A DNA stretch of 64,000 bases from a virus, in the IMG/VR virus record IMGVR_UViG_3300027841_000073, positions 9,713 through 73,712 of that record. One strand, given 5' to 3'. The notes below the pieces were generated by a model, which was given only the letters and a program-made list of their open reading frames with translations, did no database searches and was not told the origin of the DNA. Both the position numbers and the translations under genes were made by a program. This document shows positions 14,019-39,384 of the stretch, piece by piece (the first letter of the stretch is position 1; every line of letters starts with the position of its first letter).

Positions 14019-14228
14019 TTATTTACCATGTTTTTGAGCATGTTTACTATGGGGATGTTCTTTTATATATGCTTTTTGTTTTGAAGTAGGCAAATCATCT
14101 AACCAATCAGCATTGACCATCCTACGTTTCAAAATCAATGCTTTCTCTTTAGCGGTAATTTGAAAATTACCTAAAGACTTTTTCCTACGTTTTAGGATCA
14201 ATGCTTTTTCTTGTGCTGTAATCTTCAT
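14019..14228 (-). CDS. Double-tagged small protein with W.DDL..Q..YIKEHP.SK module
   Basis: Two tandem tags; paralogue of 14893..15090. Confidence 0.85.
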   Translation of the reverse strand: MKITAQEKALILKRRKKSLGNFQITAKEKALILKRRMVNADWLDDLPTSKQKAYIKEHPHSKHAQKHGK

Positions 14229-14285
14229 TTGTTTTTCTCCATTATATTAATTCAAAAGTAACTTTCAATATAGATACAAAGACTA

Positions 14286-14522
14286 CTAAAAAGTTAATCC
14301 TTTAAGAGAATTAAGAGCAGTTTTATAAATATTTTCGTACATATCCCTATCTTTTTTATCATTAGGTGTCATAGTATATTTTAAACCTACTTTTTTCATA
14401 ATTACTATATAGGCTTTCCATGCGGCATTTGCGGCATTTGTAGCTATAGTCTCTGGATTAAACCCTGCTTTTACTTGTCTACGTTTTAGGATCAATTGTT
14501 TTTCTTGTGCTGTAATCTTCAT
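14286..14522 (-). CDS. Tagged small hypothetical protein
   Basis: MKITAQEKQLILKRRQVKA. Confidence 0.85.
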   Translation of the reverse strand: MKITAQEKQLILKRRQVKAGFNPETIATNAANAAWKAYIVIMKKVGLKYTMTPNDKKDRDMYENIYKTALNSLKGLTF

Positions 14523-14547
14523 TTCAATTCCCCTTTAAATATTTATG

Positions 14548-14892
14548 TTATTTTTTATTTTTACTAACTAATTCTTTATACGTTTCAACTTTCTTTTTAT
14601 AAGCATCTTTTATATCTTTTATTTTTTGTGTCTTATCCTTAATATCTCTTTCTAACTTTAGTTTATCACTACTCCACCCTTCATCTTTTACTTTATCATA
14701 TTTTTCTTTTAAATCTGTTAATTCATCTATATTTTGATGTAAAAAATTTTTAATTGATTTTAACTCATGTTTAGCACTATATAATTCTTTTTTTAATGGG
14801 GGAGCTTTACTATATTTTTCATAATCTTTTAAACTTTTTTCACTTCTTTTTTTATGTTTTTCCACAAGTTCAGATTTATCTATTTTTTTAGC
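14548..14892 (-). other. In-frame coiled-coil continuation after the TAA of 14893..15090 (track ORF 14548..14865)
   Basis: AAA TAA GCT AAA AAA ATA GAT AAA TCT GAA CTT GTG GAA...; same frame, no SD before the GTG. Confidence 0.6.
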
Positions 14893-15090
14893 TTATTTAG
14901 CACGCTTACTATCAGGATGTTCTTTTATATACCTCTCTTGAGCATCCATACTTAAATCATCAAACCAATCAGCATTAACTTTTCTGCGTTTCAAAATAAG
15001 TTGTTTTTCTTTAGCGGTAATTTGAAAATTACCTAAAGACTTTTCCCTACGTTTCAGAATAAGTTGTTTTTCCATAGCTGTAATCTTCAT
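14893..15090 (-). CDS. Double-tagged small protein, paralogue of 14019..14228
   Basis: Shared KSLGNFQITAKEK and W.DDL..Q..YIKEHP.SK. Confidence 0.85.
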   Translation of the reverse strand: MKITAMEKQLILKRREKSLGNFQITAKEKQLILKRRKVNADWFDDLSMDAQERYIKEHPDSKRAK

Positions 15091-15113
15091 TTGTTTTCTC
15101 CCTTATAATTAAA

Positions 15114-15875
15114 TTAGTCTTTCATTTGATTGGATAAATCCTTGCCAAGGTAAAAAGACTGATAATCCATTACTCTCTTTTTACGGTCCTTGGTATCCGC
15201 ACCTTCTTCTGTAATTTCAAGAATAGCGGCTGGCGGACGTTCAAAAGTATTACCAGTACCCTTATCCTTGACAATGCGTGTTCCATCAGGAGTAACATTG
15301 ACAACAGTACCAAACCCAACAGTATTATCAGGTCTAATATAACGTACTTTGTCATTACTTAAAGCAAAAGTAGAAAGAACTATTTCAGAAGTTTGACGGG
15401 TTTTAGGTCCAACACTTACACTAGCCGTCATTTGATTAATGTAATTTTCAATACCATCATCCTGTAAGCGAACAAGGAATGACTTACCATCTACTTCTTC
15501 TACACCCCATTGAACACCAAGATTCTTGTCAAGATAACGATTTTCAGAAAGGGCAATATACCCTTGTGCAATCGCTTCCTGTAAAGGTTTACGCTGTTTA
15601 TTAGACACAACCAAAAAGCTGACAATCGGATACGGCATAGTATCATGGTATCCAATACTTTCAGGCTTAACCCTAAAAGAAGAGTTACCTTGGACAATAG
15701 CCCAATTACGTAAATCTTCATAAGTAGGTTCTTTACCTGCATAAGTAGCAGTAACACGTACAGCACCTTCCGCAATCTTGCTATAATTTACTACTTGAAT
15801 ATCGCGTCTGCAAGGGGCCGCACCAACTTTTTCACTCACTCTTGCCAAAATACGATCACCAATACTTGTTTTCAT
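15114..15875 (-). CDS. Putative virion structural protein
   Basis: Strong SD (GGGAGG), CGT/GGT-type codon usage like sheath and tube genes, late region. Confidence 0.55.
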   Translation of the reverse strand: MKTSIGDRILARVSEKVGAAPCRRDIQVVNYSKIAEGAVRVTATYAGKEPTYEDLRNWAIVQGNSSFRVKPESIGYHDTMPYPIVSFLVVSNKQRKPLQEAIAQGYIALSENRYLDKNLGVQWGVEEVDGKSFLVRLQDDGIENYINQMTASVSVGPKTRQTSEIVLSTFALSNDKVRYIRPDNTVGFGTVVNVTPDGTRIVKDKGTGNTFERPPAAILEITEEGADTKDRKKRVMDYQSFYLGKDLSNQMKD

Positions 15876-15896
15876 TTTTCTTTCCTCCCTGTTAAA

Positions 15897-16199
15897 TTAA
15901 TCGTTACCGATTTTCAATTTAAGTTTATCTATTGTTTCAATTGCAAGATGCATATCTTTTTCCAATTTTGTTCTTTGTTGAATGATGGGTTTCATCAAAT
16001 TTTGAATTTGTTTTAGTAAATCTTCATGGAACTTTGTTTGAGCAAACTTATTTGCTTTATCCATAAGTTTAGTAAATTGATCTAACCCATGGATTGACTG
16101 ACTCAATAAAGCATTGTATTCCCCAATATCATTACTTTCATTTGAATGAATTTTACGCCTTTTTAAAATTAGTTGTTTTTCTTGTGCTGTAATCTTCAT
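15897..16199 (-). CDS. Tagged coiled-coil protein
   Basis: MKITAQEKQLILKRRKIHS. Confidence 0.85.
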   Translation of the reverse strand: MKITAQEKQLILKRRKIHSNESNDIGEYNALLSQSIHGLDQFTKLMDKANKFAQTKFHEDLLKQIQNLMKPIIQQRTKLEKDMHLAIETIDKLKLKIGND

Positions 16200-16260
16200 T
16201 CGTTTTATCCTTTATAAATAGCTAAATCCTAATATAGTATTACAAGTACAAAAATTATTG

Positions 16261-16596
16261 TTAAAGTTTTTCAATAGAGAATAAAGTTTTATTTTTCTTA
16301 AATTGAATATATTTACCTTCTTTAATTACTTTTACTTTATCAAATTCATCTAAAGTAATATCAAAAATACCACTTGGTAATTTCATAATAAGTTGTAATT
16401 CCCCTGCATCCCCTTCAATTTTAAATTTACCTTGTACTTCTACAGTAAAGTATAAAGGATCATTACTTTCAAATAAAAATCTTACAGGAACATTTTCAAA
16501 AGATTCTATTATTTTTCTACCTTTACTTTTATCATCCTCTGCTACTGCTTTCCTATGATTTAAAATAAAATTTGCTTCTGCTTTAGTAATCTTCAT
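16261..16596 (-). CDS. Hypothetical protein with degenerate tag
   Basis: MKITKAEANFILNHRKAVA. Confidence 0.8.
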   Translation of the reverse strand: MKITKAEANFILNHRKAVAEDDKSKGRKIIESFENVPVRFLFESNDPLYFTVEVQGKFKIEGDAGELQLIMKLPSGIFDITLDEFDKVKVIKEGKYIQFKKNKTLFSIEKL

Positions 16597-16608
16597 TCGT
16601 TTTCTCCT

Positions 16609-16965
16609 TTATAAATAGGTATCCAGACCCGTTACATCCGTAAATACTTTTTGCAAATCATCCGCATAAATACCTTCCTGCTTTTTTACTATTTTAAAAT
16701 CGAATTTTTTTACTTTATAAAAAGCCATACCATATGTATCGGAAGGTGTAAGAATTATTTTAACATGGTTAATACCTTTTGGATTCTTTCCTATTTTAAA
16801 ACTTAAACTTCCATCACTATCAAAAACTAAATTTTTTGCACCTGTCATAGTGATGAATTTATTACCACCCAATTGTTGTAAAATAGTATTAGCAATTTGT
16901 CTTGCATCTGCTACTATCTTACGTCTTTTTAAAACATATTGTTTTTCTTGTACTGTAATTTTCAT
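16609..16965 (-). CDS. Tagged phage protein (ILQQLGG..F..MTGA family)
   Basis: MKITVQEKQYVLKRRKIVA, then a domain I recall as widespread in phages, function unknown. Confidence 0.8.
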   Translation of the reverse strand: MKITVQEKQYVLKRRKIVADARQIANTILQQLGGNKFITMTGAKNLVFDSDGSLSFKIGKNPKGINHVKIILTPSDTYGMAFYKVKKFDFKIVKKQEGIYADDLQKVFTDVTGLDTYL

Positions 16966-16966
16966 T

Positions 16967-17290
16967 TTATATATTCTTTTTAAAGTATTTTTCTAATTCT
17001 TCATTAGCTCCTGTAATTTCCTTATTAATGGTATCTAAATTATCTTCTATTAAATTAGAATTTTTTTGAAGAGATTTAATAGCTTCTTTAATTGTTTGAT
17101 ACGTATTATCCATTAATTCATCTTTTATCTTTACTAATAATTGTGCTAACCTTTCTACTTTGGTATCAAAATCTGAATAATATAATTCCTTTACAATTTT
17201 CAACATCAATTTATGATTTGCTAAAACATCTTCAGCTTTTACTTCCCTACGTTTTAAAATCAAGGCTTTTTCTTGTGCTGTGATTTTCAT
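16967..17290 (-). CDS. Tagged coiled-coil protein
   Basis: MKITAQEKALILKRREVKA. Confidence 0.85.
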   Translation of the reverse strand: MKITAQEKALILKRREVKAEDVLANHKLMLKIVKELYYSDFDTKVERLAQLLVKIKDELMDNTYQTIKEAIKSLQKNSNLIEDNLDTINKEITGANEELEKYFKKNI

Positions 17291-17310
17291 TTGTTTCTCC
17301 TTTTTTGTAT

Positions 17311-17322
17311 AAATACATATAC
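17311..17322 (-). promoter_or_regulatory. Candidate late promoter GTATATGTATTT
   Basis: About 10 nt upstream of the AAGGAG SD of 16967..17290. Confidence 0.5.
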
Positions 17323-17330
17323 TATTTTAA

Positions 17331-18365
17331 TTAACCGACAGCCCTTACTAATCTGCGATTTCTGTGAATATACATACCAGTAGGTCCAACACCACTTGTT
17401 GTAACACCTACTCTACCAAGAATTTCAGCGCGTAAAGCACTACGTTTTGCCTTTGGTAAATGTTCATTCAAGTAATCTTGTATTCTACCTAATTCACTTT
17501 CAATAGGTCCGGTTCTATCATAATCCAAACTTACGGCTTGCCCTGAATACGCAAAAGCTAAATCAGTTTCCAACATGAATTGTGAATTAAGTAAATACCA
17601 AATACCCGCAAAGAAAATAAAAGGTTCCAATATAGTAGGAACACCTGTTAATCTATAAGAAGTAACTGGATACCAACCATTGATTACATCCATGCCGCCA
17701 AATAAAGCAAAGTTGATATCACTATCCAAGTACATTTGCGGTTCATTCATTTTCTTTATAATTCTATCCACAAAAAATCGTATTCTCGTTAAGTATTTCA
17801 ACATTCTTACAGGGGCTATTATTAAATTTTGATAATAATCCTGTAAATCCGTTTTCCATATTAAAGTATGTTCTTCTGTTCTCAAATAAGTAGAACTTAT
17901 ATCACAAGACAATTGTGTTCCTAAACGATGATCTACTATATCAACATCAATGCCTTCCAATATCAATTTGTCACTTACATATAAATTACAAATAGCATCG
18001 GAAGGACGTTGTGGAATAATTAATCTTGCATGGTAATCACTACCTGAAATTGCAAACTTACTCAATTCTCTTTGATATATTTCATCCTCTGTCAAATCAG
18101 GATCAACTACATCAAAATACATTGTCTTTTTTATATCACCATAATACCAAGTAATACTCCATTCTAAATCAGCGGTTGACGATGGTGCATTTACTGGAAT
18201 AGTAGCTTTTACTTCATACCAATGATCCTGATATTGAGGCGTACCCGTACCCGCTAAGAAAGTTTGATTAGTAGGAGTCTTGATAACAAACTCCGGTTCT
18301 GTTCCAAGACTTTCTTCAAAGTAAATTGAATATGTGTATTCCTTACTTTTTACAACAGGAGTCAT
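17331..18365 (-). CDS. Putative head-tail adaptor (neck) protein
   Basis: C-terminal E..LAFAYSGQAVSLDYDRT resembles large-myophage neck proteins; beta-rich N-terminus. Confidence 0.5.
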   Translation of the reverse strand: MTPVVKSKEYTYSIYFEESLGTEPEFVIKTPTNQTFLAGTGTPQYQDHWYEVKATIPVNAPSSTADLEWSITWYYGDIKKTMYFDVVDPDLTEDEIYQRELSKFAISGSDYHARLIIPQRPSDAICNLYVSDKLILEGIDVDIVDHRLGTQLSCDISSTYLRTEEHTLIWKTDLQDYYQNLIIAPVRMLKYLTRIRFFVDRIIKKMNEPQMYLDSDINFALFGGMDVINGWYPVTSYRLTGVPTILEPFIFFAGIWYLLNSQFMLETDLAFAYSGQAVSLDYDRTGPIESELGRIQDYLNEHLPKAKRSALRAEILGRVGVTTSGVGPTGMYIHRNRRLVRAVG

Positions 18366-18376
18366 TTAATTTCCTT

Positions 18377-18715
18377 TTAATTTAAATCTACTTTTATTTG
18401 AGTACGATTCTTATATTCAAATTTAATAGAAGTACTGCCTGTATCAGAACCACCAGAACCACCTATTAAAGTAGTATTAAGAAGATTAAAATAAACTTCA
18501 TCCCTTTTTTCTGCTATTACTTTTACAACTTTAGCTCCAACATATTTTATTTTACCTTGTAAAGTTACCTGACCTGTTTTAGGTACAACCATTTCTATAA
18601 ATGCATTTTTCCCATCATTTTCTTTAAAAAATTTTTCAATCGGGTTATCTTGTGCTGTTACTTTCTTTTGTCGATGTTTTAATATGAGTTGTTTCTCTTG
18701 CGCTGTTATTTTCAT
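18377..18715 (-). CDS. Tagged hypothetical protein
   Basis: MKITAQEKQLILKHRQKKVTA. Confidence 0.85.
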   Translation of the reverse strand: MKITAQEKQLILKHRQKKVTAQDNPIEKFFKENDGKNAFIEMVVPKTGQVTLQGKIKYVGAKVVKVIAEKRDEVYFNLLNTTLIGGSGGSDTGSTSIKFEYKNRTQIKVDLN

Positions 18716-18837
18716 TTTAGTTTCCTTTTGGGTAATTATATTTTGCGTAAATTCGCAAACAGTAATCTACAATCCCATGAACAGATTTTTCAAATTTATA
18801 TTTAAATTTTATAAATTTATTTTTTAAACACTTCATT

Positions 18838-19344
18838 TCAATTGTCCAAATATTCTTTGAGCCATTTTTTAGCTTGCGTAATTTTACGTGTATTAAACCT
18901 TGTAAATTCTTCGCCATTTAAAAATACTAAATAGATACCCTCTTTCGGTTCAAAAAATAAATCATATTTATTACCTTTATATTTAACACTACCTTCTCTT
19001 ACTGCTTTATCATATAGTTTTTGTACCTTGTCCAATAATTGTTTTTCATCCATTATATTTGATATTACTTTTCTACGTTTCAGAATGAATTGTTTTTCTT
19101 GTGAAGTAATTTTAAAAGACATAATTTGGTTCCTTCTTATTTCACGTATAGCATCATTATAAACCAATTGAAGTGGTAAGGGAATAATAGGTTCTGTATT
19201 TGTATACAAATATTGATTTACTAATTTTTGCAATTGAAATTCTTTAGATGAATCGAGACTATAATTATAAGATATCTTTTTTACTATTTTTTCAATAGTA
19301 GCTTCATCCAAATTTAAATTTTCTTGAGCAATTGCTTTATCCAT
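18838..19344 (-). CDS. Two-domain protein with internal tag
   Basis: Internal FKITSQEKQFILKRRKVIS at ~19072-19116. Confidence 0.85.
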   Translation of the reverse strand: MDKAIAQENLNLDEATIEKIVKKISYNYSLDSSKEFQLQKLVNQYLYTNTEPIIPLPLQLVYNDAIREIRRNQIMSFKITSQEKQFILKRRKVISNIMDEKQLLDKVQKLYDKAVREGSVKYKGNKYDLFFEPKEGIYLVFLNGEEFTRFNTRKITQAKKWLKEYLDN

Positions 19345-19350
19345 ATTTCT

Positions 19351-19887
19351 TTATAAATTGTAACTTTTTAAAACTTGATCCCATTCACGTACAAACATGG
19401 TAATCGTTTTTGAAGTTACATTACCCGCACTAGGATTTTCTCTGTCTCGTTTAAACTCTTTTCCATAAATAGCATCTAAAGCTTTATTACGTAAATCAAC
19501 ATCAAAGGTTTCATCCCCTTTGAATAAATGTACTTCAACATAACCGGCTTTACCACTAAAACTTTTATATTTTGCACTTTTGAGATTAAGTTTTTTAGTT
19601 AGTAAACGTAATCGTTTTACAATATCTTTTTGTTCATCCGTAGCACTCTGTATTTTACGCAATTTTAATATATATCTTTTTTCACTTGCTGTAATTTTGA
19701 ACATACTATCTCCTTTAGCCAAACTGACATTTAATACTTTTTTGAAAAGAGATTTTACTCCATCCCAATCATTAGCTTTAATGTAGTTTTCCATAAGGGA
19801 AATATATTTTTCATCGGCTTTCTGGTAGAACTTCACCATTTCCTCAAAACCTATATTTCCCTTATAGGATAAAGAAGTAATTTTCAT
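19351..19887 (-). CDS. Two-domain protein (YKGNIGFEEMVKFY module) with internal tag
   Basis: Internal MFKITASEKRYILKLRKIQS at ~19657-19704. Confidence 0.85.
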   Translation of the reverse strand: MKITSLSYKGNIGFEEMVKFYQKADEKYISLMENYIKANDWDGVKSLFKKVLNVSLAKGDSMFKITASEKRYILKLRKIQSATDEQKDIVKRLRLLTKKLNLKSAKYKSFSGKAGYVEVHLFKGDETFDVDLRNKALDAIYGKEFKRDRENPSAGNVTSKTITMFVREWDQVLKSYNL

Positions 19888-20534
19888 TAAACAATTTCAG
19901 CAACAAATGTAATTACTCTAACAACCATATCGCTGATAGTAACATCAAAATCGGTTGTTAATGTAATTTTGTCATTAACTGCATTAGGAGCAAACCCTAA
20001 TGGAGTAGCATGTTCCCACGAATTAACAGTAGTATTAGCGGCAACAGCAATGCCATCCACTATTTCATCAACAGCAATTGTTTTTCGCCCTGCATCCAAA
20101 GTAGTAGCACCGCCACCCGGAGCGGTAAGTACTTTAACAATAGCACCCACAAGATAAGAATTTGCTTTCACCAAATTAGCAACAGAATCCACACCCAATG
20201 AACCATCGCCAACAGCAATAGTAATATCCTCACTATATGCTTTAATGGTAAAATTAAACCCTAATTTAGTAACATTTACAGAGGGGAAACTTCTGGCAAG
20301 GTCTTCTACTTCCCCTGTATCCGAAAGGGTTGCACTATCGGAAGTAATGTTTACTAAACCTTTATCTACAGCCGCATCCAATTGTTCCTTTTCTTCTTTC
20401 GGCATTCTCAAATACTGTTCATCGGTAATTGACATTCCCGCATTAGTAAGTTGAACGCCATTGATAAAAAGAACCATGGAACCACTACGTCCTAAACCTG
20501 CAATCGCCGCTTTGTCCAACATAATGTGTAGCAT
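19887..20534 (-). CDS. Putative capsid decoration/structural protein, paralogue of 30491..31411
   Basis: Shared TIAVG.G, ANLV.A.S, APGGGATTLD.GR, IAVDE..DGIAVA, NSW.HA, TLTTD..VT.SDM. Confidence 0.55.
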   Translation of the reverse strand: MLHIMLDKAAIAGLGRSGSMVLFINGVQLTNAGMSITDEQYLRMPKEEKEQLDAAVDKGLVNITSDSATLSDTGEVEDLARSFPSVNVTKLGFNFTIKAYSEDITIAVGDGSLGVDSVANLVKANSYLVGAIVKVLTAPGGGATTLDAGRKTIAVDEIVDGIAVAANTTVNSWEHATPLGFAPNAVNDKITLTTDFDVTISDMVVRVITFVAEIV

Positions 20535-20549
20535 GATTTTTACTCCTTT

Positions 20550-20903
20550 TTAATTAAGTTCATTTCTGTTCATGTAAAAACCAATAATATAAGTATCTCG
20601 TTTGTTTGTGGTAGCTAAAAAGAAGTCTTTAGCACTTTTAATCTTACTTCTAATTTGTTGCTCTGTTTTTTTAAGAGTAACATCAAACCATATTTGAAAG
20701 CTATCATCTTGTATAACTAATTGTATATCAATCATTTTGTCTTGCTTGTTTAAAGCTTCGGATTTAACATTTATAAATTCTACTCCCCCTTTTAAAGTAG
20801 ACCCTCCTAATTTTTTAACCATTGCTTCATACAAATTAGTATTTTCAGCTTTTACTTGTCTACGTTTCAGAATCAATTGTTTTTCTTGTGCTGTAATCTT
20901 CAT
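20550..20903 (-). CDS. Tagged hypothetical protein
   Basis: MKITAQEKQLILKRRQVKA. Confidence 0.85.
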   Translation of the reverse strand: MKITAQEKQLILKRRQVKAENTNLYEAMVKKLGGSTLKGGVEFINVKSEALNKQDKMIDIQLVIQDDSFQIWFDVTLKKTEQQIRSKIKSAKDFFLATTNKRDTYIIGFYMNRNELN

Positions 20904-20904
20904 T

Positions 20905-21219
20905 TCAATTCTCCTTTGTGATTTCTAAGTTAAGGTTCATTTGGTACTGATTACCAAGATTAGTTACTACTTTTACTTTTATTGTGTAAGGGGAATAAGC
21001 ATAATCCCCCCCTTCTTGAATTTTAAAGATTATTTTAGCATCTTCCACTTTCTTAAATTCATCATCAATCATTATATTGGATACATCATTATTACTTTTA
21101 TCGAACACTTCCACATAAGAATCTAAAGTCAATTTTTCACCAGTAGCCATTTCCTTTATGAAATCACAAGTAATAGCCAATTTTTCATAATTGTATTTAA
21201 CTATATTATTCGATGCCAT
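20905..21219 (-). CDS. Small beta-rich putative virion protein
   Basis: Likely start MASNN (GGAG SD, promoter motif upstream) rather than track start 21318. Confidence 0.6.
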   Translation of the reverse strand: MASNNIVKYNYEKLAITCDFIKEMATGEKLTLDSYVEVFDKSNNDVSNIMIDDEFKKVEDAKIIFKIQEGGDYAYSPYTIKVKVVTNLGNQYQMNLNLEITKEN

Positions 21220-21270
21220 GGCATTTACTCCATACAATTCATTGAATATTCTTTTTATTTGTTTTCGTGT

Positions 21271-21282
21271 AAATACATATAC
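21271..21282 (-). promoter_or_regulatory. Candidate late promoter GTATATGTATTT
   Basis: Upstream of the revised start at 21219. Confidence 0.45.
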
Positions 21283-21314
21283 ATTTGTAGTATAATAATT
21301 AAAAGATATTTTTC

Positions 21315-22511: not shown

Positions 22512-22524
22512 GACGTTTACCCTT

Positions 22525-22809
22525 CTATTTGATTTTATCTTGCAAAGAATTTATGAATTTATATATAAGAACTCTTTGCTGTTCACCGAGTTTACTAATT
22601 TGTTTTACCATTTGCATTATCTCACTATCCTTGCTTTTTTCAGCCATTTTATATAGCATCAAATAAGTAGAATTGATATCATTATTATTTATTTTTGCTT
22701 CTAATTCATCAACCATTTTTTTAATTGGTACAATATAAGCTTTATCAGATAAAGCAAAAGTTTTACGTTTATTTAAAATCAATGCTTTTTCTTTTGCTGT
22801 AATCTTCAT
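22525..22809 (-). CDS. Tagged small helical protein
   Basis: MKITAKEKALILNKRKTFA. Confidence 0.85.
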   Translation of the reverse strand: MKITAKEKALILNKRKTFALSDKAYIVPIKKMVDELEAKINNNDINSTYLMLYKMAEKSKDSEIMQMVKQISKLGEQQRVLIYKFINSLQDKIK

Positions 22810-22864
22810 TTCAATTCTCCTTTTTGATGTTAGCTAATACATAAACTTAAACATTATAAATCCT

Positions 22865-23851
22865 TTATGGTTCGATTGCAAAATAAAATAAAGGTTTAAT
22901 TATATTAGGATTATAAACTACTAATTGTAAATCCTTAACTAATAATGCTTGTTTATTTTTACCAAATAATTTTTTTACTACATCTTTAAAATGTTTTGAT
23001 TGTTCTCCCATATCTTCCCCGGCTACTTTCTCTAACTCAATTCTAAGTTTACCTCCATTAGTATTTTCTTTTGTATCTGCAAAATCCATAGCATCAATTT
23101 CAATAATATATTTAGGATCAATTTTTACACCAAATACATAATCACCATATCTTCTTGCAAAAGAAAGTTCTGGAGCAAAATAAACCCCTAAACCCCAATT
23201 ACTCATACCAAAATATTTAGTCTGTTTTTTAAATTTAATATTTGGTGATAAAAAATGAATCCTGTTAATTTTTCCTTTATTAAATAAGTCTACTACTTCT
23301 TTTGGCAGAACTTTTAATTTTTCTTGAGTTTCTTTATCATCTTTATTTATTTTTAAAATTATACCGCGTGTAAAATTACTGGCAAAAAGTAATTCTTTTT
23401 GAGTACATCTATAATAGGTATCATTGGATATAGCTTTAATCCTATATTTTAATATGAGTTGTTTTTCTTGTGCTGTAATCTTGAACATAGCTGTTACCTT
23501 TGGCTTTCTATACATTTTATAGGATGATAATCTAAAGTCCTTGTTCCTACCTTTATTTTCATAAAAGCCAAACTGCTTATAAAACTTTACTAATCTGTTT
23601 CTAGAAGTAGTACCTTTACGATCATCCTTTAAGGCAGGTGTTAATTCTACCATTTTATTGTTTTGATCCGCATAGTCAGTAATACTCTTTATTATTTCAG
23701 AACCAATACCTTGTTTTCTATTTTCTTTTGGTACTACAATGTTATCAATTATAATACTATTATCTCTTTTGTTATCCACAAGATATAAGTTTAAACCCTT
23801 TACTTTATCCCGCCAATACTTCTCTATTTGTTCTATACTGGTAAATTTCAT
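22865..23851 (-). CDS. GNAT acetyltransferase + internal tag + ADP-ribosyltransferase-like domain
   Basis: VVPKENRKQGIGS and LVKFYKQFGF (GNAT); KVTA-MFKITAQEKQLILKYR; YYRCT...GLGVYFA..SFARRYG...QLVVYNP. Confidence 0.75.
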   Translation of the reverse strand: MKFTSIEQIEKYWRDKVKGLNLYLVDNKRDNSIIIDNIVVPKENRKQGIGSEIIKSITDYADQNNKMVELTPALKDDRKGTTSRNRLVKFYKQFGFYENKGRNKDFRLSSYKMYRKPKVTAMFKITAQEKQLILKYRIKAISNDTYYRCTQKELLFASNFTRGIILKINKDDKETQEKLKVLPKEVVDLFNKGKINRIHFLSPNIKFKKQTKYFGMSNWGLGVYFAPELSFARRYGDYVFGVKIDPKYIIEIDAMDFADTKENTNGGKLRIELEKVAGEDMGEQSKHFKDVVKKLFGKNKQALLVKDLQLVVYNPNIIKPLFYFAIEP

Positions 23852-25101
23852 ATTTTTTCACCTAAATCTTTTACTTCTAATACTGCTTCAGGTGGAACTC
23901 GATATTCACGTTCACCGGGGAAGTACTCTATATTATCACTTGATATATCTACTTTCGCTTTTATAATGCCAATATCTTTAATATTTACTTTATGAAATTG
24001 AGTAAGCATACGTTTATCAACTTCCACCATTACAGGATTACTTCTGATCTTACTCATTGTTAAATAATAATTGAAATATTTTATCAATTGGATTAAATTT
24101 TCAGGTTCACTATCCCTATATAGAGAACCATATCTTGTAGGTTCAGGTAAATCAATTTTTTCACGTTTATACCAATCTTTAATTGTTTCCCATTTCAATT
24201 TGTTTTGTACTATCATAGCTACTTCTTTAAAGTACCTTGCTATATCGTGGGCTATGGCTAAATCATGGGTAAATGAAATCAGTTTACCACTACCACCCCC
24301 TAAATAACCTAAACCTGTCATATGTTCCGGTTTAACTTTACTAAATCCATTTTTAAGAATTTCAGTTTTATACATAGTAGCATGGTATAATACTTCTACT
24401 TTTTCACTTTTGGGTTTTTTCTCCCTACCCATTTCAGCATTCCATAAAAATTCTCTGTATACCAATTGTTCTTTTGCTTTGTTTTCTACTTTCAACAGAA
24501 AATCAAGTATTTTGTTCAAGAAGTTTTTCAGTATTATAAAGAACCTGTATAACTCCAAACCTTGTTTATAGGAATCAGAATAGTCATCGTTTTTTTCAAT
24601 ACCTTTTTCGTAGGTTTCAATCGCATACTCAATTCTTTCTTTATGTTCTATAAACTGTTTTTCTAATTCTTCTTTGTCTCTCTTTATATTCTCAAATAAT
24701 CGACTACTACTTAAATTTATTGAATAGCCAAATAATTTATGCAAATAAGGCCAATCAATTTTTTCATCTTTAGGTTGAAGTAAATTAAGTATGCTTTGAA
24801 AATCCCCTTTTACTTTATCAAGCCCATCATATTTTTCATTAAGTAATTCGAATATACTTTTAACATCAACAGGTTCATACTTACTATTAAAAAAGTCATG
24901 CATTGCATCTTCTACAGCATCATTGGATTTACTTATTTCATTATACGTATTCTGTAATTGTTCTGCTTCTTTTAATAAAACATCTACTTCTTTCATTCTA
25001 CTTTTGAAATAGGGAATCCATGCCCGAATAGGGGTTGCTATTTTAGCAATGGCTTTTCGCCTGTTGAATATGAATTGTTTTTCTTCTTTAGTAATCAGCA
25101 T
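23848..25101 (-). CDS. Tagged helical protein with C-terminal ART-like domain
   Basis: MLITKEEKQFIFNRRKAIA; VLYHAT...ILKNGF...ISFTHDLAIA...GEREYRV. Confidence 0.65.
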   Translation of the reverse strand: MLITKEEKQFIFNRRKAIAKIATPIRAWIPYFKSRMKEVDVLLKEAEQLQNTYNEISKSNDAVEDAMHDFFNSKYEPVDVKSIFELLNEKYDGLDKVKGDFQSILNLLQPKDEKIDWPYLHKLFGYSINLSSSRLFENIKRDKEELEKQFIEHKERIEYAIETYEKGIEKNDDYSDSYKQGLELYRFFIILKNFLNKILDFLLKVENKAKEQLVYREFLWNAEMGREKKPKSEKVEVLYHATMYKTEILKNGFSKVKPEHMTGLGYLGGGSGKLISFTHDLAIAHDIARYFKEVAMIVQNKLKWETIKDWYKREKIDLPEPTRYGSLYRDSEPENLIQLIKYFNYYLTMSKIRSNPVMVEVDKRMLTQFHKVNIKDIGIIKAKVDISSDNIEYFPGEREYRVPPEAVLEVKDLGEKI

Positions 25102-25973
25102 TATTTTCTACCTTTATATGGTTCAAAGTCTGTACGATATATATTAAAATCTGTACCACCTTTTTGCCATCTTATTTCATAGAATTGATAATCATTTGTA
25201 TCAGACTCATATAATCTTTTTAATCTTGGATATGAATCCAAAGCATAGGTATCTGTCCTACCTTCAAAAAATTTCATTTGTTTTAATACATCATCCTTAT
25301 TACTTAAATTACTTTTTCGTTTATTAAGAATAACCCCTACTATACCTGTATCAATATTCTTTACTTTTGCACCTATATCCGTTTCACCCGCTAATGACGG
25401 ATCAACTTCAAAAATTTTATCTGTATCGAATACTACTATTTGGTTACTGTCAAAACTCCTACCTATTGTTTTACCTTTGTAATAAATAGCATCGAATTTC
25501 TTTTTAAGGTTTTCTGTCATTATTCTTGTTTGCTCTACTCTGTTATCGAAACTTTGCCTTGAAAGCATTGGATCAAATCCATATTCCATCCACCATTTAG
25601 TAAAAGTATTTACACTTTGATAATTGATTTGTTCAAGCCTTGGTACATTTAAGTAGTACATCTTTGCACCCTTTAAACTACCCCTACCATACATCTTTGC
25701 TACATTTTTACTCGTTGTAAAATAAATACCAAAACCCATTAAATGAACGGGCATCTTTTCAGAATCTTTACCAGTAAACCCATTTCTGATTAAACCTTCT
25801 CCGGGTAATCCTTCAAAAATTTTAAACCCTTCTTCTTTTATATTTTTCAATCGTTCCTGTTCCGTACCATGCCAAACAGGTCCAAAGTAATGTTTATCAA
25901 TAGCTTCTTGTTGTGAAATCTTTTTTACATTTGCAAGAATATATGATTTATCTTGCGCTGTTATCTTGAACAT
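25101..25973 (-). CDS. ADP-ribosyltransferase-like protein with degenerate tag
   Basis: VWHGT...IKEEGF...GFGIYFTTSKNVAKMY...NQIVVFD (H-Y-Q/E-type ART pattern). Confidence 0.7.
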   Translation of the reverse strand: MFKITAQDKSYILANVKKISQQEAIDKHYFGPVWHGTEQERLKNIKEEGFKIFEGLPGEGLIRNGFTGKDSEKMPVHLMGFGIYFTTSKNVAKMYGRGSLKGAKMYYLNVPRLEQINYQSVNTFTKWWMEYGFDPMLSRQSFDNRVEQTRIMTENLKKKFDAIYYKGKTIGRSFDSNQIVVFDTDKIFEVDPSLAGETDIGAKVKNIDTGIVGVILNKRKSNLSNKDDVLKQMKFFEGRTDTYALDSYPRLKRLYESDTNDYQFYEIRWQKGGTDFNIYRTDFEPYKGRK

Positions 25974-25982
25974 GTTTGCCTC

Positions 25983-26387: not shown

Positions 26388-26528
26388 TTTTTCCTCCTTA
26401 ATATAAACAGATAAACAAGTATCCCATACACATAAGTAAAAGGCTGAAAAATAAAAGTAGGTAAAAAAATGAACATACCTACCATTACTTTCCAAGGCAT
26501 CTGAATAGAATGAAATCTATTATGATAC

Positions 26529-27104: not shown

Positions 27105-27105
27105 T

Positions 27106-27732
27106 TTAGTATCCATAGTCGATAAGTACAAGACGGTTAAGGAAAATACCCCAACTGGAAGGACGAATAAAATCACCCCCAAAACCTATACTAGGAGTAT
27201 CAGGGGAATTCTTTTTTCCATCTAAATACACATTAGCTAAACCTTTTTCACCACCCCAATCCCAATTACCTAATTCCTGCCACTTTTCGTCAGCAAGTAA
27301 TTCCATTCTACTAAGATGATTAAAACGATAATCATCTATGAATACTTCTTTTATACCTATGGCATTTTTCATGGCTTGACTGAATTTTTTCAACGGTTTT
27401 GCATAGGCCATAATAAGAATTTTACAATCGTCACTTAATGCATATACAGGGCATAAAATTTTAGGGCTACCCATTATCCTGTAAACGTCATCTTGTCTTA
27501 CATTTTGGTCTTCACCTAATTCATTTAAAGCCCTTTTTACTACAAAGTTTCTATTCTTTAATTTGAAAATATATACTTCTCTGCCTTTACCCCTGCCTAC
27601 TGGTTTACCAAATTTTGCAATGAAATCCTTTTGGGTTTTACCTTGCATTGAATCAGCTAATTCTTTAAAGGGTTTTAATATCCCTCTACGTGCAAGTATA
27701 AATTGTTTTTCACTCGCTGTTATCTTGAACAT
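27106..27732 (-). CDS. Tagged protein kinase-like protein
   Basis: MFKITASEKQFILARR; GRGKGREVY, VVKRA, GDF.R..SWG, VLIDYG. Confidence 0.65.
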   Translation of the reverse strand: MFKITASEKQFILARRGILKPFKELADSMQGKTQKDFIAKFGKPVGRGKGREVYIFKLKNRNFVVKRALNELGEDQNVRQDDVYRIMGSPKILCPVYALSDDCKILIMAYAKPLKKFSQAMKNAIGIKEVFIDDYRFNHLSRMELLADEKWQELGNWDWGGEKGLANVYLDGKKNSPDTPSIGFGGDFIRPSSWGIFLNRLVLIDYGY

Positions 27733-27801
27733 CTTTTTCTTCCTTTGGTTCATGTAAAGAATATAATGTTTTTAGTAGTACTCTCCATATAAAAGAAAAC
27801 A

Positions 27802-37444: not shown

Positions 37445-37453
37445 ATTTTCTCC

Positions 37454-38116
37454 TTAAAAAATACTTTTTAATGAATCAATACTTTTACTATATTGATTTT
37501 CTATTTCATCATAAGCAGTAAAAATATTTGCAGTAGCTTGCGATGAAGTATTATTCACCCCGCAAAGTCTTGTTATTTGTACTGTCCCATCAGAATTGAT
37601 ATACATATCGTTTAAATATTGATCTGTTGCATCAACTTTGTCACTTACATTTCTACCACAAAAAGAAGTAAGGCATTCTACTATTTTTGGAAACTCTTTC
37701 ATCATATCAGGTATACCCGCACCTTTTATCAAACCTTCATAATTCTTTAATGCTTTAGCAATGAGCATTTCAGGATTAGCTGAAGATTCGATTACACCAC
37801 TTAAAGTATCAGTTACACCTTTCGATAATTGTAAAACAATACTAGTAGCACTTCTAAACATATCATTAGTTTTAAAACAACTACATGCCTGAATATGAGC
37901 AAGTATTTCTTCGGGTGTTGGTTGTTTTAAATCAGACAATTCTTTTAGTTTATCATTAAAATCATCGGAAGCATTTAAATCTTTAAGCATTTTATTCAAA
38001 TTGCGTCTTGTTTTCTTGGTAGTCTTCCATGATGTTTCAACAGCTTTAGCAGTAGAATCCAATTCTGAATTGATACTTTCACACATTGAAGTAGCAATAG
38101 GGTCTAAAATAGTCAT
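37454..38116 (-). CDS. Hypothetical helical protein
   Basis: 220-aa operonic ORF. Confidence 0.75.
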   Translation of the reverse strand: MTILDPIATSMCESINSELDSTAKAVETSWKTTKKTRRNLNKMLKDLNASDDFNDKLKELSDLKQPTPEEILAHIQACSCFKTNDMFRSATSIVLQLSKGVTDTLSGVIESSANPEMLIAKALKNYEGLIKGAGIPDMMKEFPKIVECLTSFCGRNVSDKVDATDQYLNDMYINSDGTVQITRLCGVNNTSSQATANIFTAYDEIENQYSKSIDSLKSIF

Positions 38117-38119
38117 ATA

Positions 38120-38362
38120 TTACCTTTTATCGGGATCACCATAATAAAAGTAAACATCATCAGAATTTAATTTATTCTTTTTTATTTCTTTATCTATATT
38201 CTTTTTTATTTGTTTAGCATCTTTTACATTACCTGTTTTACGTAATTCTTGATAAGTTTTCACCCAATCCCCTAATCCTGATTTCATTATTGCATCAAGA
38301 TTAGCTTGTATTTTTCTACGTTTCAGAATTAGTTGTTTCTCACTTGCTGTAATCTTGAACAT
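38120..38362 (-). CDS. Tagged small protein
   Basis: MFKITASEKQLILKRRKIQA. Confidence 0.85.
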   Translation of the reverse strand: MFKITASEKQLILKRRKIQANLDAIMKSGLGDWVKTYQELRKTGNVKDAKQIKKNIDKEIKKNKLNSDDVYFYYGDPDKR

Positions 38363-38383
38363 TGTTTTATCCTTTTAATTTAA

Positions 38384-38737
38384 TTAAGCACTCTTGGCGG
38401 CTACATATTGAATCTTCATGTCAATGAGATTAGGATTACCAAAATAAAAAATAGTAGCAGTAGCAATATTCTCAAAAGAAAATAATTTAGTAGTAATTGC
38501 TGTATTTGCAATGTCACCTACTTTTACTTCAAAAGGACTGGATGCCATGGCAAACAGTATATCAAATTCCCCTGTAAGAAGTACATCTGTAACACCTGCC
38601 TCAATAAGTAATTCCCCTTCTGAAAAAGATTCAAAAGTGAATTCCTTTTCGATTTCTTGTGCAATACACCTACGGGATTGCGTTCCCAAATCCTTGATTA
38701 ACGTCGTAATCCATTTGAGATTTATTGAATTTGCCAT
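38384..38737 (-). CDS. Hypothetical beta-rich protein
   Basis: AAGGAG SD supplied by the tag codons of the upstream gene. Confidence 0.75.
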   Translation of the reverse strand: MANSINLKWITTLIKDLGTQSRRCIAQEIEKEFTFESFSEGELLIEAGVTDVLLTGEFDILFAMASSPFEVKVGDIANTAITTKLFSFENIATATIFYFGNPNLIDMKIQYVAAKSA

Positions 38738-39384
38738 TGTTCTCTCCTTTTTAGTATAAATTGTTTTTCACTACTGGTTATTTTAAATGGGGTAGAATCC
38801 AACTGTTTGGAAAGTAATGTACCTTTTTCTTTTAACATATCAGGATCAAGCAAAACCCAATAATCCTTGGAATCATTTTGCATACGATACTTATACTTAA
38901 AATTAAATTTTTTACGTAATGCATTAACCATTGTTTCGTATAAATCTTTTCTACTATTAATCAATTCATCATCAACAACTCCAAACATCAAAAAGTATAT
39001 ATTCAATTTACTTTTAGCTTTTTTGATAATATTCAACAAAGTAGCAAATAAACTAAAAATATCCTTATCGTTTTTCTTGTCTTTATCGAATCTGCTATTA
39101 TCAATGGTAAAATTTATTTCATACATAACTACATAATGATGTCTATGGCCTAACAATTTGTCAATTATAACATTGAATTTTTTGAAATCAACTTTGCTTG
39201 GAAACCTATACACAATAGGCTTTAATTCTACTTTTACTTCCCTTCCATCTTTTAATGTAAAATTAGCATTAACCTTTTTTACAATAAAAGTTAAAGGTTT
39301 TCTGTCTATAATAACCTTTACTTTTTTAGCTATATATTTTAAATTGTATGAAAAAGGAGTATCAAATAATGCAATAGTTTTCAT
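38722..39384 (-). CDS. Hypothetical protein with C-terminal tag
   Basis: Ends ...PFKITSSEKQFILKRREQWQIQ*. Confidence 0.85.
   Translation of the reverse strand: MKTIALFDTPFSYNLKYIAKKVKVIIDRKPLTFIVKKVNANFTLKDGREVKVELKPIVYRFPSKVDFKKFNVIIDKLLGHRHHYVVMYEINFTIDNSRFDKDKKNDKDIFSLFATLLNIIKKAKSKLNIYFLMFGVVDDELINSRKDLYETMVNALRKKFNFKYKYRMQNDSKDYWVLLDPDMLKEKGTLLSKQLDSTPFKITSSEKQFILKRREQWQIQ

What the first reader, a model, noticed from the sequence alone, without database searches (positions are those of the whole stretch)
14019..39384. A portable peptide tag shared by 24 proteins: candidate capsid-loading / effector-delivery signal
Seen: the motif M(F)KITxxEKx[LFY]ILxRR occurs 26 times in 24 ORFs. It is N-terminal in the ORFs at 14019 (x2), 14286, 14893 (x2), 15897, 16261, 16609, 16967, 18377, 20550, 22525, 23848, 25101, 27106, 27802, 28220, 34208, 36043 and 38120; internal in 18838, 19351, 22865, 28760 and 29478; C-terminal in 38722. 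Apart from the 14019/14893 pair, the sequences after the tag are unrelated. Copies differ by many synonymous changes (ATG AAG ATT ACA GCA CAA GAA AAA CAA TTG ATC CTA vs ATG AAA ATA ACA GCG CAA GAG AAA CAA CTC ATA TTA), which points to selection on the peptide. T-x-x-E is a helix capping box starting an amphipathic, basic-ended helix. All tagged genes lie among late head/neck/tail genes; none is in the 42-64 kb metabolic block. Known: T4 internal proteins are loaded into proheads by a short N-terminal capsid-targeting sequence later removed by gp21, and T4 Alt is a packaged, injected ART. Inference: this phage uses one standard address label to load a large, changeable set of proteins into the head for co-injection. 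Alternatives are a shared chaperone/scaffold-binding helix, a degron or a DNA-binding tail.
Basis: partly seen in the sequence, partly recalled or inferred. Interest (0 to 1): 0.95.

Follow-up and report, generated by a model that had tools for sequence, protein, structure and literature searches.

The report
Shared 19-residue tag on phage cargo proteins
A fragment of an uncultured giant phage puts the same 19-amino-acid peptide on 24 otherwise unrelated proteins, many of them host-modifying enzymes. The peptide is most likely an address label that loads them into the virus particle for delivery with the DNA, but packaging has not been shown.

Summary
The peptide [F/M]-K-I-T-A-x-E-K-x-[LFYM]-I-L-K-R-R-K-[VAI]-x-[AS] occurs 26 times in 24 minus-strand ORFs at 14.1-38.8 kb. 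A 27th copy lies just outside the window. None is on the + strand or in the 42-64 kb nucleotide-metabolism block.

Selection acts on the peptide, not the DNA. Synonymous codons are as scrambled as codon usage predicts (0.59 observed, 0.54 expected). With tags masked, only the 14019/14893 pair is related.

An exhaustive profile search found the tag on 38 further metagenomic proteins. Two related contigs carry 3 and 7 copies. It was absent from the phage-record, IMG/VR and GTDB searches made, from PDB, and from the Pfam scans of tagged proteins.

Tagged proteins are basic, cysteine-poor and lack membrane segments. They include ADP-ribosyltransferase, GNAT, ParB-like and AAA+ modules typical of virion-delivered 'polyvalent proteins'. 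Untagged homologues of one transferase differ exactly by the tag.

No head genes lie in this fragment, which is 28% of the genome. The helix is not amphipathic. Most 'internal' copies have their own start codon.

This scan has noted analogous tags with other sequences on other large phages.

The parts
14109..14165 (-). tag copy; second of a tandem pair in ORF 14019-14228, no ATG before it
14172..14228 (-). tag copy, N-terminal, ORF 14019-14228 (69 aa)
14466..14522 (-). tag copy, N-terminal, ORF 14286-14522 (78 aa); 95% nt-identical to the copy at 20847-20903
14971..15027 (-). tag copy; second of a tandem pair in ORF 14893-15090
15034..15090 (-). tag copy, N-terminal, ORF 14893-15090 (65 aa)
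16143..16199 (-). tag copy, N-terminal, ORF 15897-16199 (100 aa)
16540..16596 (-). diverged tag copy (MKITKAEANFILNHRKAVA), N-terminal, ORF 16261-16596 (111 aa)
16909..16965 (-). tag copy, N-terminal, ORF 16609-16965 (118 aa)
17234..17290 (-). tag copy, N-terminal, ORF 16967-17290 (107 aa)
18659..18715 (-). tag copy, N-terminal, ORF 18377-18715 (112 aa)
19060..19116 (-). tag copy at residue 77 of ORF 18838-19344; own ATG (M-S-F-K-I-T) and SD-like AAGGAA upstream
19645..19701 (-). tag copy at residue 63 of ORF 19351-19887; own ATG with strong SD (AAAGGAG)
20847..20903 (-). tag copy, N-terminal, ORF 20550-20903 (117 aa)
22753..22809 (-). tag copy, N-terminal, ORF 22525-22809 (94 aa)
23429..23485 (-). 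tag copy at residue 123 of ORF 22865-23851, between a GNAT domain (residues 1-122) and a C-terminal domain; own ATG and SD-like AAAGG
25045..25101 (-). diverged tag copy (MLITKEEKQFIFNRRKAIA), N-terminal, ORF 23848-25101 (417 aa); the C-terminal third resembles the ART fold only weakly in the Atlas model
25914..25970 (-). diverged tag copy, N-terminal, ORF 25101-25973 (290 aa); sub-threshold ART-PolyVal match
27673..27729 (-). tag copy; ORF 27106-27753, likely true start at the second ATG (MFKIT) behind SD AAAGGAAG
28150..28206 (-). tag copy, N-terminal, ORF 27802-28209 (135 aa)
28682..28738 (-). tag copy, N-terminal, ORF 28220-28741 (173 aa), a small R-S-ExE ADP-ribosyltransferase; homologues elsewhere lack exactly these residues
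29207..29263 (-). tag copy at residue 84 of ORF 28760-29512 (preceded by M-E-A-N)
30174..30230 (-). diverged tag copy (MQLTKEERQFIISRRIAIA) at residue 68 of ORF 29478-30431; C-terminal ParB/Srx-like domain with DGHHR
35963..36019 (-). tag copy, N-terminal, ORF 34208-36022 (604 aa), an AAA+ ATPase interrupted by an intein with HNH
36328..36384 (-). tag copy, N-terminal, ORF 36043-36387 (114 aa)
38303..38359 (-). tag copy, N-terminal, ORF 38120-38362 (80 aa)
38731..38787 (-). tag copy at the C-terminus of ORF 38722-39384; lacks the final [VAI]-x-[AS]; the next gene (38384-38737) starts in another frame just behind its KRR codons
5333..10987 (-). context: untagged 1884-aa SNF2-helicase giant protein, with a faint DarB-like PHROG match
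17331..18365 (-). context: untagged head-tail connector protein shared with jumbo phages, flanked by tagged genes
31618..33381 (-). context: untagged 587-aa multidomain protein; one ~160-aa module recurs in proteins that also carry DnaJ, NUDIX, ParBc, ART-PolyVal or GNAT domains
30491..31411 (-). context: untagged acidic fibre-like protein; its N-terminal 73 aa are the only non-tag match to related contig L001, whose homologue matches minor-tail and tail-fibre PHROGs
1575..5111 (-). context: tail sheath (1178 aa); with the tube and baseplate genes it is syntenic with Vibrio phage vB_VcorM_GR7B

Best explanation
The 19-residue peptide is a portable address label: an extended F/M-K-I-T followed by a strongly basic helix. 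One conserved receptor in the assembling virion would read it. That receptor is most likely the prohead interior (scaffold/core, inner capsid surface or portal region). In this way a large and changeable set of small basic proteins and host-modifying enzymes would be incorporated into the particle and delivered with the DNA. The phage would thus do with many single genes, each carrying a short tag, what other phages do with one giant 'polyvalent' protein. Shown here: the tag exists, is modular, is under strong purifying selection as a peptide, and is far better conserved than its cargo or any other matching stretch of the related contigs. Also shown: the cargo has the composition and domain types of injected proteins, and the genes sit in the virion-gene block. 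Inferred only: binding to a virion component, packaging, any proteolytic trimming (candidate sites A-x-E at residues 5-7 and [VAI]-x-[AS] at 17-19), and ejection.
For: (1) There are 26 copies in 24 of about 40 minus-strand ORFs at 14-39.4 kb, plus one among baseplate genes. None is in the opposite-strand RNR/ThyA/RuvC block.
(2) Selection is on the peptide. Synonymous sites are saturated (0.593 against 0.538 expected), and upstream only an RBS is shared.
(3) Conservation stops abruptly after residue 19. The pattern is the same in 25 own copies and 46 external ones.
(4) An exhaustive HMM search of 1.84 billion representatives gave 56 hits. Of these, 38 are from other metagenomic sequences, mostly N-terminal and with unrelated cargo.
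(5) Related contigs L001 and L002 carry 3 and 7 copies. Tags are up to 100% identical to the window's, while the only other match between these contigs and the window is 36% over 73 aa. Many cargos sharing one receptor would freeze an interface in this way.
(6) Modularity: homologues of the tagged ART 28220-28741 in phiM12, Vibrio phiKT1024 and two metagenomes lack exactly the residues after Met1.
(7) Cargo identity: an R-S-ExE ART whose top fold matches are ADP-ribosyltransferases (weak E-values, low-confidence model). A GNAT matches a 3925-position PHROG profile at 6.6e-30, and its homologues are fused to ART-PolyVal. There are also sub-threshold ART-PolyVal and ParBc_2 matches and an AAA+ ATPase. 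Iyer et al. 2017 (PMC5512222) describe such domains in polyvalent proteins predicted to be packaged.
(8) Composition: pI is 9-10 and there are no TM segments. Cys is 0.29% against 0.90% in untagged same-strand proteins (p = 9e-6) and 2.34% on the + strand. External tagged proteins have 0.37% Cys and median pI 9.6.
(9) Neighbours are a jumbo-phage head-tail connector, fibre-like and foldon-like proteins, tail and baseplate genes, and a DarB-like SNF2 protein.
[quoted passage not shown] SPN3US gp53 and gp54 share identical 15-residue N-termini containing the AXE cleavage motif (PMC5694885).
(11) AlphaFold2 on the tag alignment gives one helix from residue 5, with pLDDT 91-93 over the first 20 residues.
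Against: There is no direct evidence of packaging, cleavage or injection. No major capsid, portal, scaffold or prohead-protease gene was found in the fragment, so no receptor could be named or co-folded. The two most obviously effector-like large proteins, SNF2 (1884 aa) and the 587-aa multidomain protein, are untagged. The tag is strongly basic (+6) and not amphipathic. This is unlike the acidic T4 CTS and fits nucleic-acid binding just as well. The nearest cultured relatives (GR7B, PaBG, vB_PpuM-Peetri, NCTB, RHph_TM39) lack the tag, and the three scanned whole (GR7B, PaBG, Peetri) also lack any comparable N-terminal cluster, so packaging cannot be inferred from their proteomes. In this scan one comparable shared N-terminal tag proved to be tied to a modifying enzyme instead (e1-127136).
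Confidence: 0.45

Rival explanations
1. The tag is a recognition (leader-like) sequence for one shared enzyme or chaperone: a protease, a modifying enzyme or an unfoldase. That partner would process, activate or hold many substrates, independently of packaging.
For: The residues T4, E7, K8 and R15 are invariant or nearly so, and conservation ends sharply at a small residue. That pattern resembles a processing or recognition site. An analogous phage tag elsewhere in this scan was linked to a radical-SAM enzyme (e1-127136). One tagged protein is itself an AAA+ ATPase.
Against: No enzyme family is shared between the window and the tag-bearing contigs L001 and L002. Tandem and C-terminal copies fit a leader poorly. 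The basic, Cys-poor composition of the cargo is not explained.
Confidence: 0.15
2. The tag is a docking helix that gathers the tagged enzymes onto a non-virion hub inside the infected cell. The hub could be a host machine such as RNA polymerase or the ribosome, or a phage-made complex.
For: The tag stays extremely conserved while every other compared stretch diverges, as expected if the partner is a slowly evolving host protein. Hydrophobic residues are spread all round the helix, which suggests it is engulfed by a partner.
Against: The tag is absent from all genes of the replication/metabolism block. The tagged genes are co-oriented with and interleaved among virion genes. No known host-hub-binding motif was recognised; this rests on my own knowledge and was not tested.
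Confidence: 0.15
3. The tag is a basic nucleic-acid-binding arm, comparable to arginine-rich motifs or to the strand-plus-first-helix half of a ribbon-helix-helix domain. It would tether the proteins to phage or host DNA or RNA.
For: Net charge is +6 with a K-R-R-K core on a predicted helix. Variants reading F-K-I-T-P-E-E...E-R-R resemble the start of RHH/MobC proteins (the resemblance is from memory).
Against: No Pfam RHH or MobC match was found. AlphaFold2 gives a single helix with no second helix. The repeat search surfaced no abundant repeated DNA family other than the tags themselves that could serve as a cognate site. Invariant hydrophobic positions (I3, I11, L12) are not needed for simple charge binding.
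Confidence: 0.1
4. The tag is a degron or timing signal that gives all tagged proteins the same short lifetime.
For: Most copies are N-terminal. The start M-K-I-T-A loosely resembles N-terminal ClpX recognition motifs (from memory, not tested).
Against: Tandem second copies and the C-terminal copy cannot act as N-degrons. Nineteen constrained residues are more than known N-degrons need. Late virion-block genes in a lytic phage have little need for turnover.
Confidence: 0.05
5. The repeat is a DNA-level recombination cassette (RBS plus first codons) with no peptide function.
For: One pair of copies (14466-14536 and 20848-20917) is 95-96% identical in DNA, including the RBS. Three copies share the upstream string GAATTGAAATG.
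Against: Across all pairs the synonymous sites are at the random expectation and median nucleotide identity is 65%. Leu and Arg codon families interchange while the residues stay fixed. The tag is kept in distant contigs with different DNA.
Confidence: 0.02

Closest known systems
Capsid targeting sequence (CTS) of phage T4 internal proteins IPI/II/III, Alt and gp24 (Mullaney and Black 1996; reviewed in PMC3012670, PMC5694885)
   Same: A short N-terminal peptide is the only thing shared by a diverse, fast-changing set of small basic proteins plus an ADP-ribosyltransferase. Its role is to load them into the prohead for injection.
   Different: No sequence relation was found: a tblastn search of the phage records gave no tag-region match. 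The tag is 19 residues with net charge +6, against 10 residues and roughly -1 (from memory) for MKTYQEFIAE. It marks at least 24 proteins in 28% of a genome rather than a handful. It also occurs in tandem and at a C-terminus. Cleavage and the T4-type protease were not found here.
Propeptides of giant-phage (phiKZ / SPN3US) head and ejection proteins, cut at S/A/G-x-E (PMC5694885, PMC10052503)
   Same: These are large myoviruses with many head-internal proteins. SPN3US paralogues gp53 and gp54 keep identical 15-residue N-termini containing A-x-E. The tag here has a near-invariant A-x-E at residues 5-7.
   Different: Those propeptides are mostly over 100 residues and are shared only by paralogues. 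Here one short tag sits on unrelated proteins. Cleavage at A-x-E would remove only 7-8 residues. Relatedness to phiKZ-like phages was not examined.
Polyvalent proteins of phages and conjugative elements (Iyer, Burroughs, Anand, de Souza, Aravind 2017, PMC5512222)
   Same: The domain repertoire overlaps (ART-PolyVal, RimI-like GNAT, ParB-like, SNF2), and delivery with the invading DNA is the predicted role.
   Different: Polyvalent proteins join many effector domains in one polypeptide. Here most effectors are separate genes, each with its own short tag.
Phage P1 Dar system (DarA/Hdf bound to the inner capsid; DarB packaged through its N-terminus; PMC9024508, PMC12810830)
   Same: Anti-defence proteins, including a giant SNF2-type protein, are packaged in the head and co-injected. 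A DarB-like protein is encoded next to the tagged block.
   Different: No common peptide tag is described for the Dar proteins in the P1 abstract read here. No DarA or Hdf homologue was identified here.
MuF (SPP1 gp7)-fused polymorphic toxins and encapsulin cargo-loading peptides
   Same: In both, a portable module directs varied cargo into an HK97-type shell.
   Different: MuF is a domain of about 300 aa. Encapsulin peptides are C-terminal and unrelated in sequence. No MuF domain was found in the Pfam scans of the tagged proteins. These comparisons rest on my own knowledge.

Membership tests
T4-type capsid targeting sequence | A short N-terminal peptide shared by otherwise unrelated proteins of one phage | tested here: met
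   26 copies in 24 ORFs. With tags masked, only one pair of cargos is related.
T4-type capsid targeting sequence | Necessary and sufficient for incorporation into the prohead | not testable with these tools
   Needs virion proteomics or tag-reporter packaging; the phage is uncultured.
T4-type capsid targeting sequence | Ends at a prohead-protease site and is removed during maturation | tested here: inconclusive
   Candidate sites A-x-E (residues 5-7) and [VAI]-x-[AS] (17-19) are conserved. No protease gene was found in the fragment, and no peptide data exist.
T4-type capsid targeting sequence | Sequence relation to MKTYQEFIAE, in a genome with T4-type head genes (gp20, gp21, gp23) | tested here: not met
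   tblastn of a double-tag protein against 50,697 phage records gave no tag-region match. PF03420, PF07068 and PF07230 are absent from the contig, which is only 28% complete.
T4-type capsid targeting sequence | Cargo are small basic internal proteins and enzymes such as an ART | tested here: met
   pI is 9-10, Cys is 0.29%, and there are no TM segments. An R-S-ExE ART is present.
Polyvalent proteins | Two to fifteen disparate effector domains in one polypeptide | tested here: not met
   Most tagged ORFs are 65-290 aa with at most one recognisable domain. Only 22865-23851 (GNAT plus a C-terminal domain) and the untagged 587-aa protein look multidomain.
Polyvalent proteins | Characteristic domain set (ART-PolyVal, GNAT, ParB, SNF2, peptidases) | tested here: met
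   The GNAT matches phrog_10691 at 6.6e-30. ART-PolyVal (7e-5) and ParBc_2 (0.01) are below Pfam cut-offs. The SNF2 match is 6.3e-22.
Ribbon-helix-helix / MobC DNA-binding domain | A strand followed by two helices that forms a dimer | tested here: not met
   No Pfam match. AlphaFold2 gives a single helix. Conservation ends after 19 residues, so there is no second helix.
   The moment is 0.01-0.11, against 0.35-0.86 for reference amphipathic peptides.

The most novel reading that the evidence does not exclude
The tag may not be a T4-style scaffold-binding signal at all. It could be the address of a different, undescribed sorting route in giant phages. One option is loading of cargo onto or into the tail/spike complex in the manner of type VI secretion effectors; one tagged gene sits between what I read by eye as spike-like and PAAR-like genes. 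Another option is hand-over to a dedicated unfoldase/translocase, since one tagged protein is an AAA+ ATPase. Either way, a single conserved receptor would serve dozens of interchangeable effectors.
Probability: 0.08. Interest if true: 0.85.

Novelty: new variant of a known kind. Interest (0 to 1): 0.6.

Why it matters
If the tag is a virion-loading label, it lists the injected arsenal of an uncultured giant phage from sequence alone. That arsenal would hold at least 24 proteins in a quarter of the genome, including several ADP-ribosyltransferase-like enzymes, acetyltransferases, a ParB-like protein and many small proteins that are good candidates for anti-defence inhibitors. It would also show a second evolutionary solution to the problem that polyvalent proteins solve: many genes with one tag instead of one gene with many domains. 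A 19-residue handle that tolerates N-terminal, internal, tandem and C-terminal placement would be a practical tool for loading foreign proteins into capsids. Together with the analogous tags this scan has noted in other large phages, it suggests that tag-addressed cargo is common in large phages and has been overlooked.

Tried and rejected
- Close relatives: megablast of the block against 50,697 phage records gave no match.
- IMG/VR scans with two structural proteins and two degenerate tag patterns found no true tag. The 27 pattern hits lack K-R-R and are chance.
- GTDB genome scan: no confirmed hit.
- tblastn of a double-tag protein against phage records matched only the non-tag part, weakly.
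- PDB profile search with the tag gave nothing.
- Pfam scans gave only a non-significant DUF6906 match (E 0.21) on the tag region.
- The tag HMM found nothing in five cultured relatives, while the positive control on the window's own contig worked. De novo clustering of N-termini in GR7B, PaBG and Peetri found nothing larger than 3.
- Complex prediction with four copies of the tag gave no verdict. No receptor candidate was co-folded, because no head gene is in the fragment.
- The look-up of sequencing runs listed no RNA holder.
- The Protein Atlas gave no usable identity for the 306-aa protein and only weak ART-fold leads for 23848-25101.
- AlphaFold2 of the tagged ART was poor, with mean pLDDT 58.8.
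- The idea that the 587-aa protein is the portal was rejected.
- Rejected readings: DNA-level cassette, amphipathic helix, RHH membership.
- No abundant repeated DNA element other than the tags appeared among the top repeat families; such an element could have been a binding site.

Full report
**What is there**

The window is 9713-73712 of a 73.7-kb IMG/VR virus record that CheckV rates 28% complete. The whole genome is therefore probably about 260 kb. GC content is about 29%.

Genes from the left edge of the window to 41.9 kb run on the minus strand. They encode:
- tail tube and a 1178-aa tail sheath;
- an 1884-aa SNF2-helicase protein with a faint DarB-like match;
- a head-tail connector shared with jumbo phages;
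- fibre-like proteins.

Baseplate genes lie just 5' of the window. From 42 kb the + strand carries ribonucleotide reductase, thymidylate synthase, a RuvC-like resolvase and two tRNAs. Sheath, tube and baseplate are syntenic with Vibrio phage vB_VcorM_GR7B. The terminase of a tag-bearing sister contig groups with phages of roughly 200-260 kb, such as NCTB, GR7B, PaBG and BcepSauron.

A 27th copy sits in a 92-aa ORF among the baseplate genes outside the window. All copies are on the minus strand. A strict back-translated core pattern hits 18 times against 0.02 expected.

Pooling 25 own and 46 external copies gives a 19-residue unit: [F/M]-K-I-T-A-x-E-K-x-[LFYM]-I-L-K-R-R-K-[VAI]-x-[AS]. Conservation drops to background at residue 20. 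With tags masked, only the 14019/14893 pair remains similar. Of about 40 non-nested minus-strand ORFs between 14.0 and 39.4 kb, 24 carry the tag.

**Selection acts on the peptide**

- Upstream of the copies only a ribosome-binding site is shared.
- Third codon positions are nearly uninformative, and Leu (TTR/CTN) and Arg (AGR/CGN) codon families interchange.
- Where two copies have the same residue, they use the same codon 59.3% of the time against 53.8% expected from this phage's codon usage. Median nucleotide identity is 65%.
- One pair (14466-14536 and 20848-20917) is 95-96% identical, including the RBS. Occasional recent copying of the cassette does occur, but it does not maintain the family.

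**Position**

Most have a Shine-Dalgarno-like stretch, so they may also be made as N-terminally tagged products from internal starts.

Copies that are clearly not N-terminal:
- the second members of the two tandem pairs;
- the copy at 29263, which is preceded by M-E-A-N and has no good Shine-Dalgarno;
- the C-terminal copy at 38731-38787. It has lost the last triplet of the motif, and the next gene starts just behind it in another frame.

**Distribution**

A profile search of 1.84 billion representative proteins returned 56 hits at E <= 0.001. Eighteen are the window's own and 38 come from other metagenomic sequences. Nearly all external hits have the tag at the N-terminus, followed by unrelated sequence.

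Two contigs from one metagenome carry 3 tags (L001, 8.6 kb) and 7 tags (L002, 14 kb). L002 also encodes a large terminase and an NAD-dependent DNA ligase. Between these contigs and the window the tags are up to 100% identical. The only other detectable similarity is 36% over 73 residues of a fibre-like protein.

The tag was not found in:
- other IMG/VR records;
- GTDB genomes;
- 50,697 phage records;
- PDB sequences;
- the Pfam scans of tagged proteins, at any significant level;
- five cultured relatives (with a working positive control).

The three of those relatives scanned whole (GR7B, PaBG, Peetri) also have no N-terminal cluster larger than three.

**What the tag is attached to**

- The 173-aa protein 28220-28741 aligns with untagged homologues in Sinorhizobium phage phiM12, Vibrio phage phiKT1024 and two metagenomic proteins. 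It differs from them exactly by the residues inserted after Met1.
- The conserved Y-R-G-M, T-S-W-T and E-x-E-V motifs identify it as an R-S-ExE ADP-ribosyltransferase. Top fold matches of a modest model are ADP-ribosyltransferases, at weak E-values.
- ORF 22865-23851 begins with a GNAT domain. That domain matches a 3925-position PHROG profile at 6.6e-30. It recurs at 50-65% identity in multidomain proteins, some with ART-PolyVal.
- Weaker matches suggest ART-PolyVal (25101-25973) and a ParB-like domain with DGHHR (29478-30431). An AAA+ ATPase is split by an intein (34208-36022).
- The untagged 587-aa protein is not a portal. It shares one module with proteins that also carry DnaJ, NUDIX, ParBc, ART-PolyVal or GNAT domains.

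This is the repertoire that Iyer et al. (PMC5512222) describe for polyvalent proteins, which they predict are packaged and delivered with the DNA.

Tagged proteins are basic (pI mostly 9-10) and have no membrane segment. They are cysteine-poor: 0.29% Cys against 0.90% in untagged proteins of the same strand (p = 9e-6) and 2.34% on the + strand. The external tagged proteins behave the same way, with 0.37% Cys and median pI 9.6.

**Shape of the tag**

AlphaFold2 on the 24-row tag alignment gives an extended M/F-K-I-T followed by one helix from residue 5. pLDDT is 91-93 over the first 20 residues.

The helix is not amphipathic. Its hydrophobic moment is 0.01-0.11, its net charge is +6, and its hydrophobic residues point in three directions. 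That suggests a peptide that is largely enclosed by its partner, or one that contacts nucleic acid.

**Interpretation**

Precedent is real. [quoted passage not shown] In giant phage SPN3US the paralogues gp53 and gp54 keep identical 15-residue N-termini containing the A-x-E protease motif (PMC5694885). The tag here has a near-invariant A-x-E at residues 5-7 and a [VAI]-x-[AS] end. Either could be a trimming site, but this is inference only.

The many-to-one relation between cargos and a receptor would explain why the tag is frozen while everything around it diverges.

Several points count against certainty:
- no head gene lies in this fragment;
- the two largest effector-like proteins are untagged;
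- the tag's chemistry differs from the T4 CTS;
- no experiment or proteome applies.

I put this reading at 0.45. The rivals are a leader for a shared enzyme or chaperone (0.15), a non-virion docking helix (0.15), a nucleic-acid-binding arm (0.10), a degron (0.05) and a pure DNA cassette (0.02).

**Relation to earlier notes of this scan**

First-stage notes on this same contig agree on three points: the enzyme arsenal, the [A/S] end of the tag, and the in-frame TAA after the double-tag genes. The notes that the tag spreads as a DNA cassette hold for only one near-identical pair.

On other DNA, the scan has repeatedly noted different shared N-terminal tags in large uncultured phages. Follow-up agents mostly read them as CTS-like. 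In one case the tag was tied to a radical-SAM enzyme. I take these as leads, not as support.

**Verdict**

The feature is real and statistically overwhelming, and it has clear modular anatomy. The tag family itself matched nothing in the Pfam, PDB or cultured-phage searches made here. The principle it most likely embodies is known from T4, so I class it as a new variant of a known kind. It is of good but not exceptional interest (0.6).

Noticed in passing
window 13782-14228 and 14548-15090 (minus strand): Both double-tag paralogues end at an in-frame TAA just after an H-P-x-S-K motif. The same frame then stays open for 79 and 115 more codons of Lys/Glu-rich, coiled-coil-like sequence. This could be stop-codon read-through, a split gene, or separate genes with non-ATG starts.
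   Followed up: partly
window 38722-38790 (minus strand): The C-terminal tag of ORF 38722-39384 is followed at once by the start of gene 38384-38737 in another frame, and the tag's K-R-R codons (AAA AGG AGA) serve as its Shine-Dalgarno. It looks as if a tag that once headed the downstream gene was captured by the upstream ORF through a frame change.
   Followed up: partly
window 13412-13702 (minus strand): A 96-aa protein has net charge +35 (Lys-rich, pI 10.4) and is built from imperfect direct DNA repeats. It may be a histone-like DNA-condensing or internal protein. It carries no tag.
   Followed up: no
window 34208-36022 (-) and 52708-55842 (+): Two genes are interrupted by inteins carrying HNH endonucleases: the tagged AAA+ ATPase and the ribonucleotide reductase large subunit. 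A free-standing HNH endonuclease at 39381-40202 contains three 114-nt tandem repeats (39880-40212).
   Followed up: partly
window 36407-37444 (minus strand): Residues about 90-197 match T4 fibritin-foldon fusion constructs and clostridial cell-wall-binding repeats in PDB (best E 1.8e-7). This suggests a whisker- or fibre-like structural protein inside the tagged block.
   Followed up: partly
contig G000:C1:1931-4350 (5' of the window): The extra tagged 92-aa ORF (G000 2255-2533) lies between a Cys-rich 107-aa ORF that looks PAAR-like and ORFs that look like a baseplate hub/spike. These identities are by eye only and were not tested.
   Followed up: no
window 14466-14536 and 20848-20917: These two tag copies are 95-96% identical in DNA, including the RBS and the string GAATTGAAATG, unlike all other pairs. 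This points to one recent cassette duplication or recombination event.
   Followed up: yes
window 14893-15090; phage records BcepSauron, BCSR5, Yoloswag: The non-tag part of the double-tag proteins (W-F/L-D-D-L ... Y-I-K-E-H-P-x-S-K) gives weak tblastn matches (E 0.1-0.8) in several jumbo phages. It may be a small conserved motif of its own.
   Followed up: no
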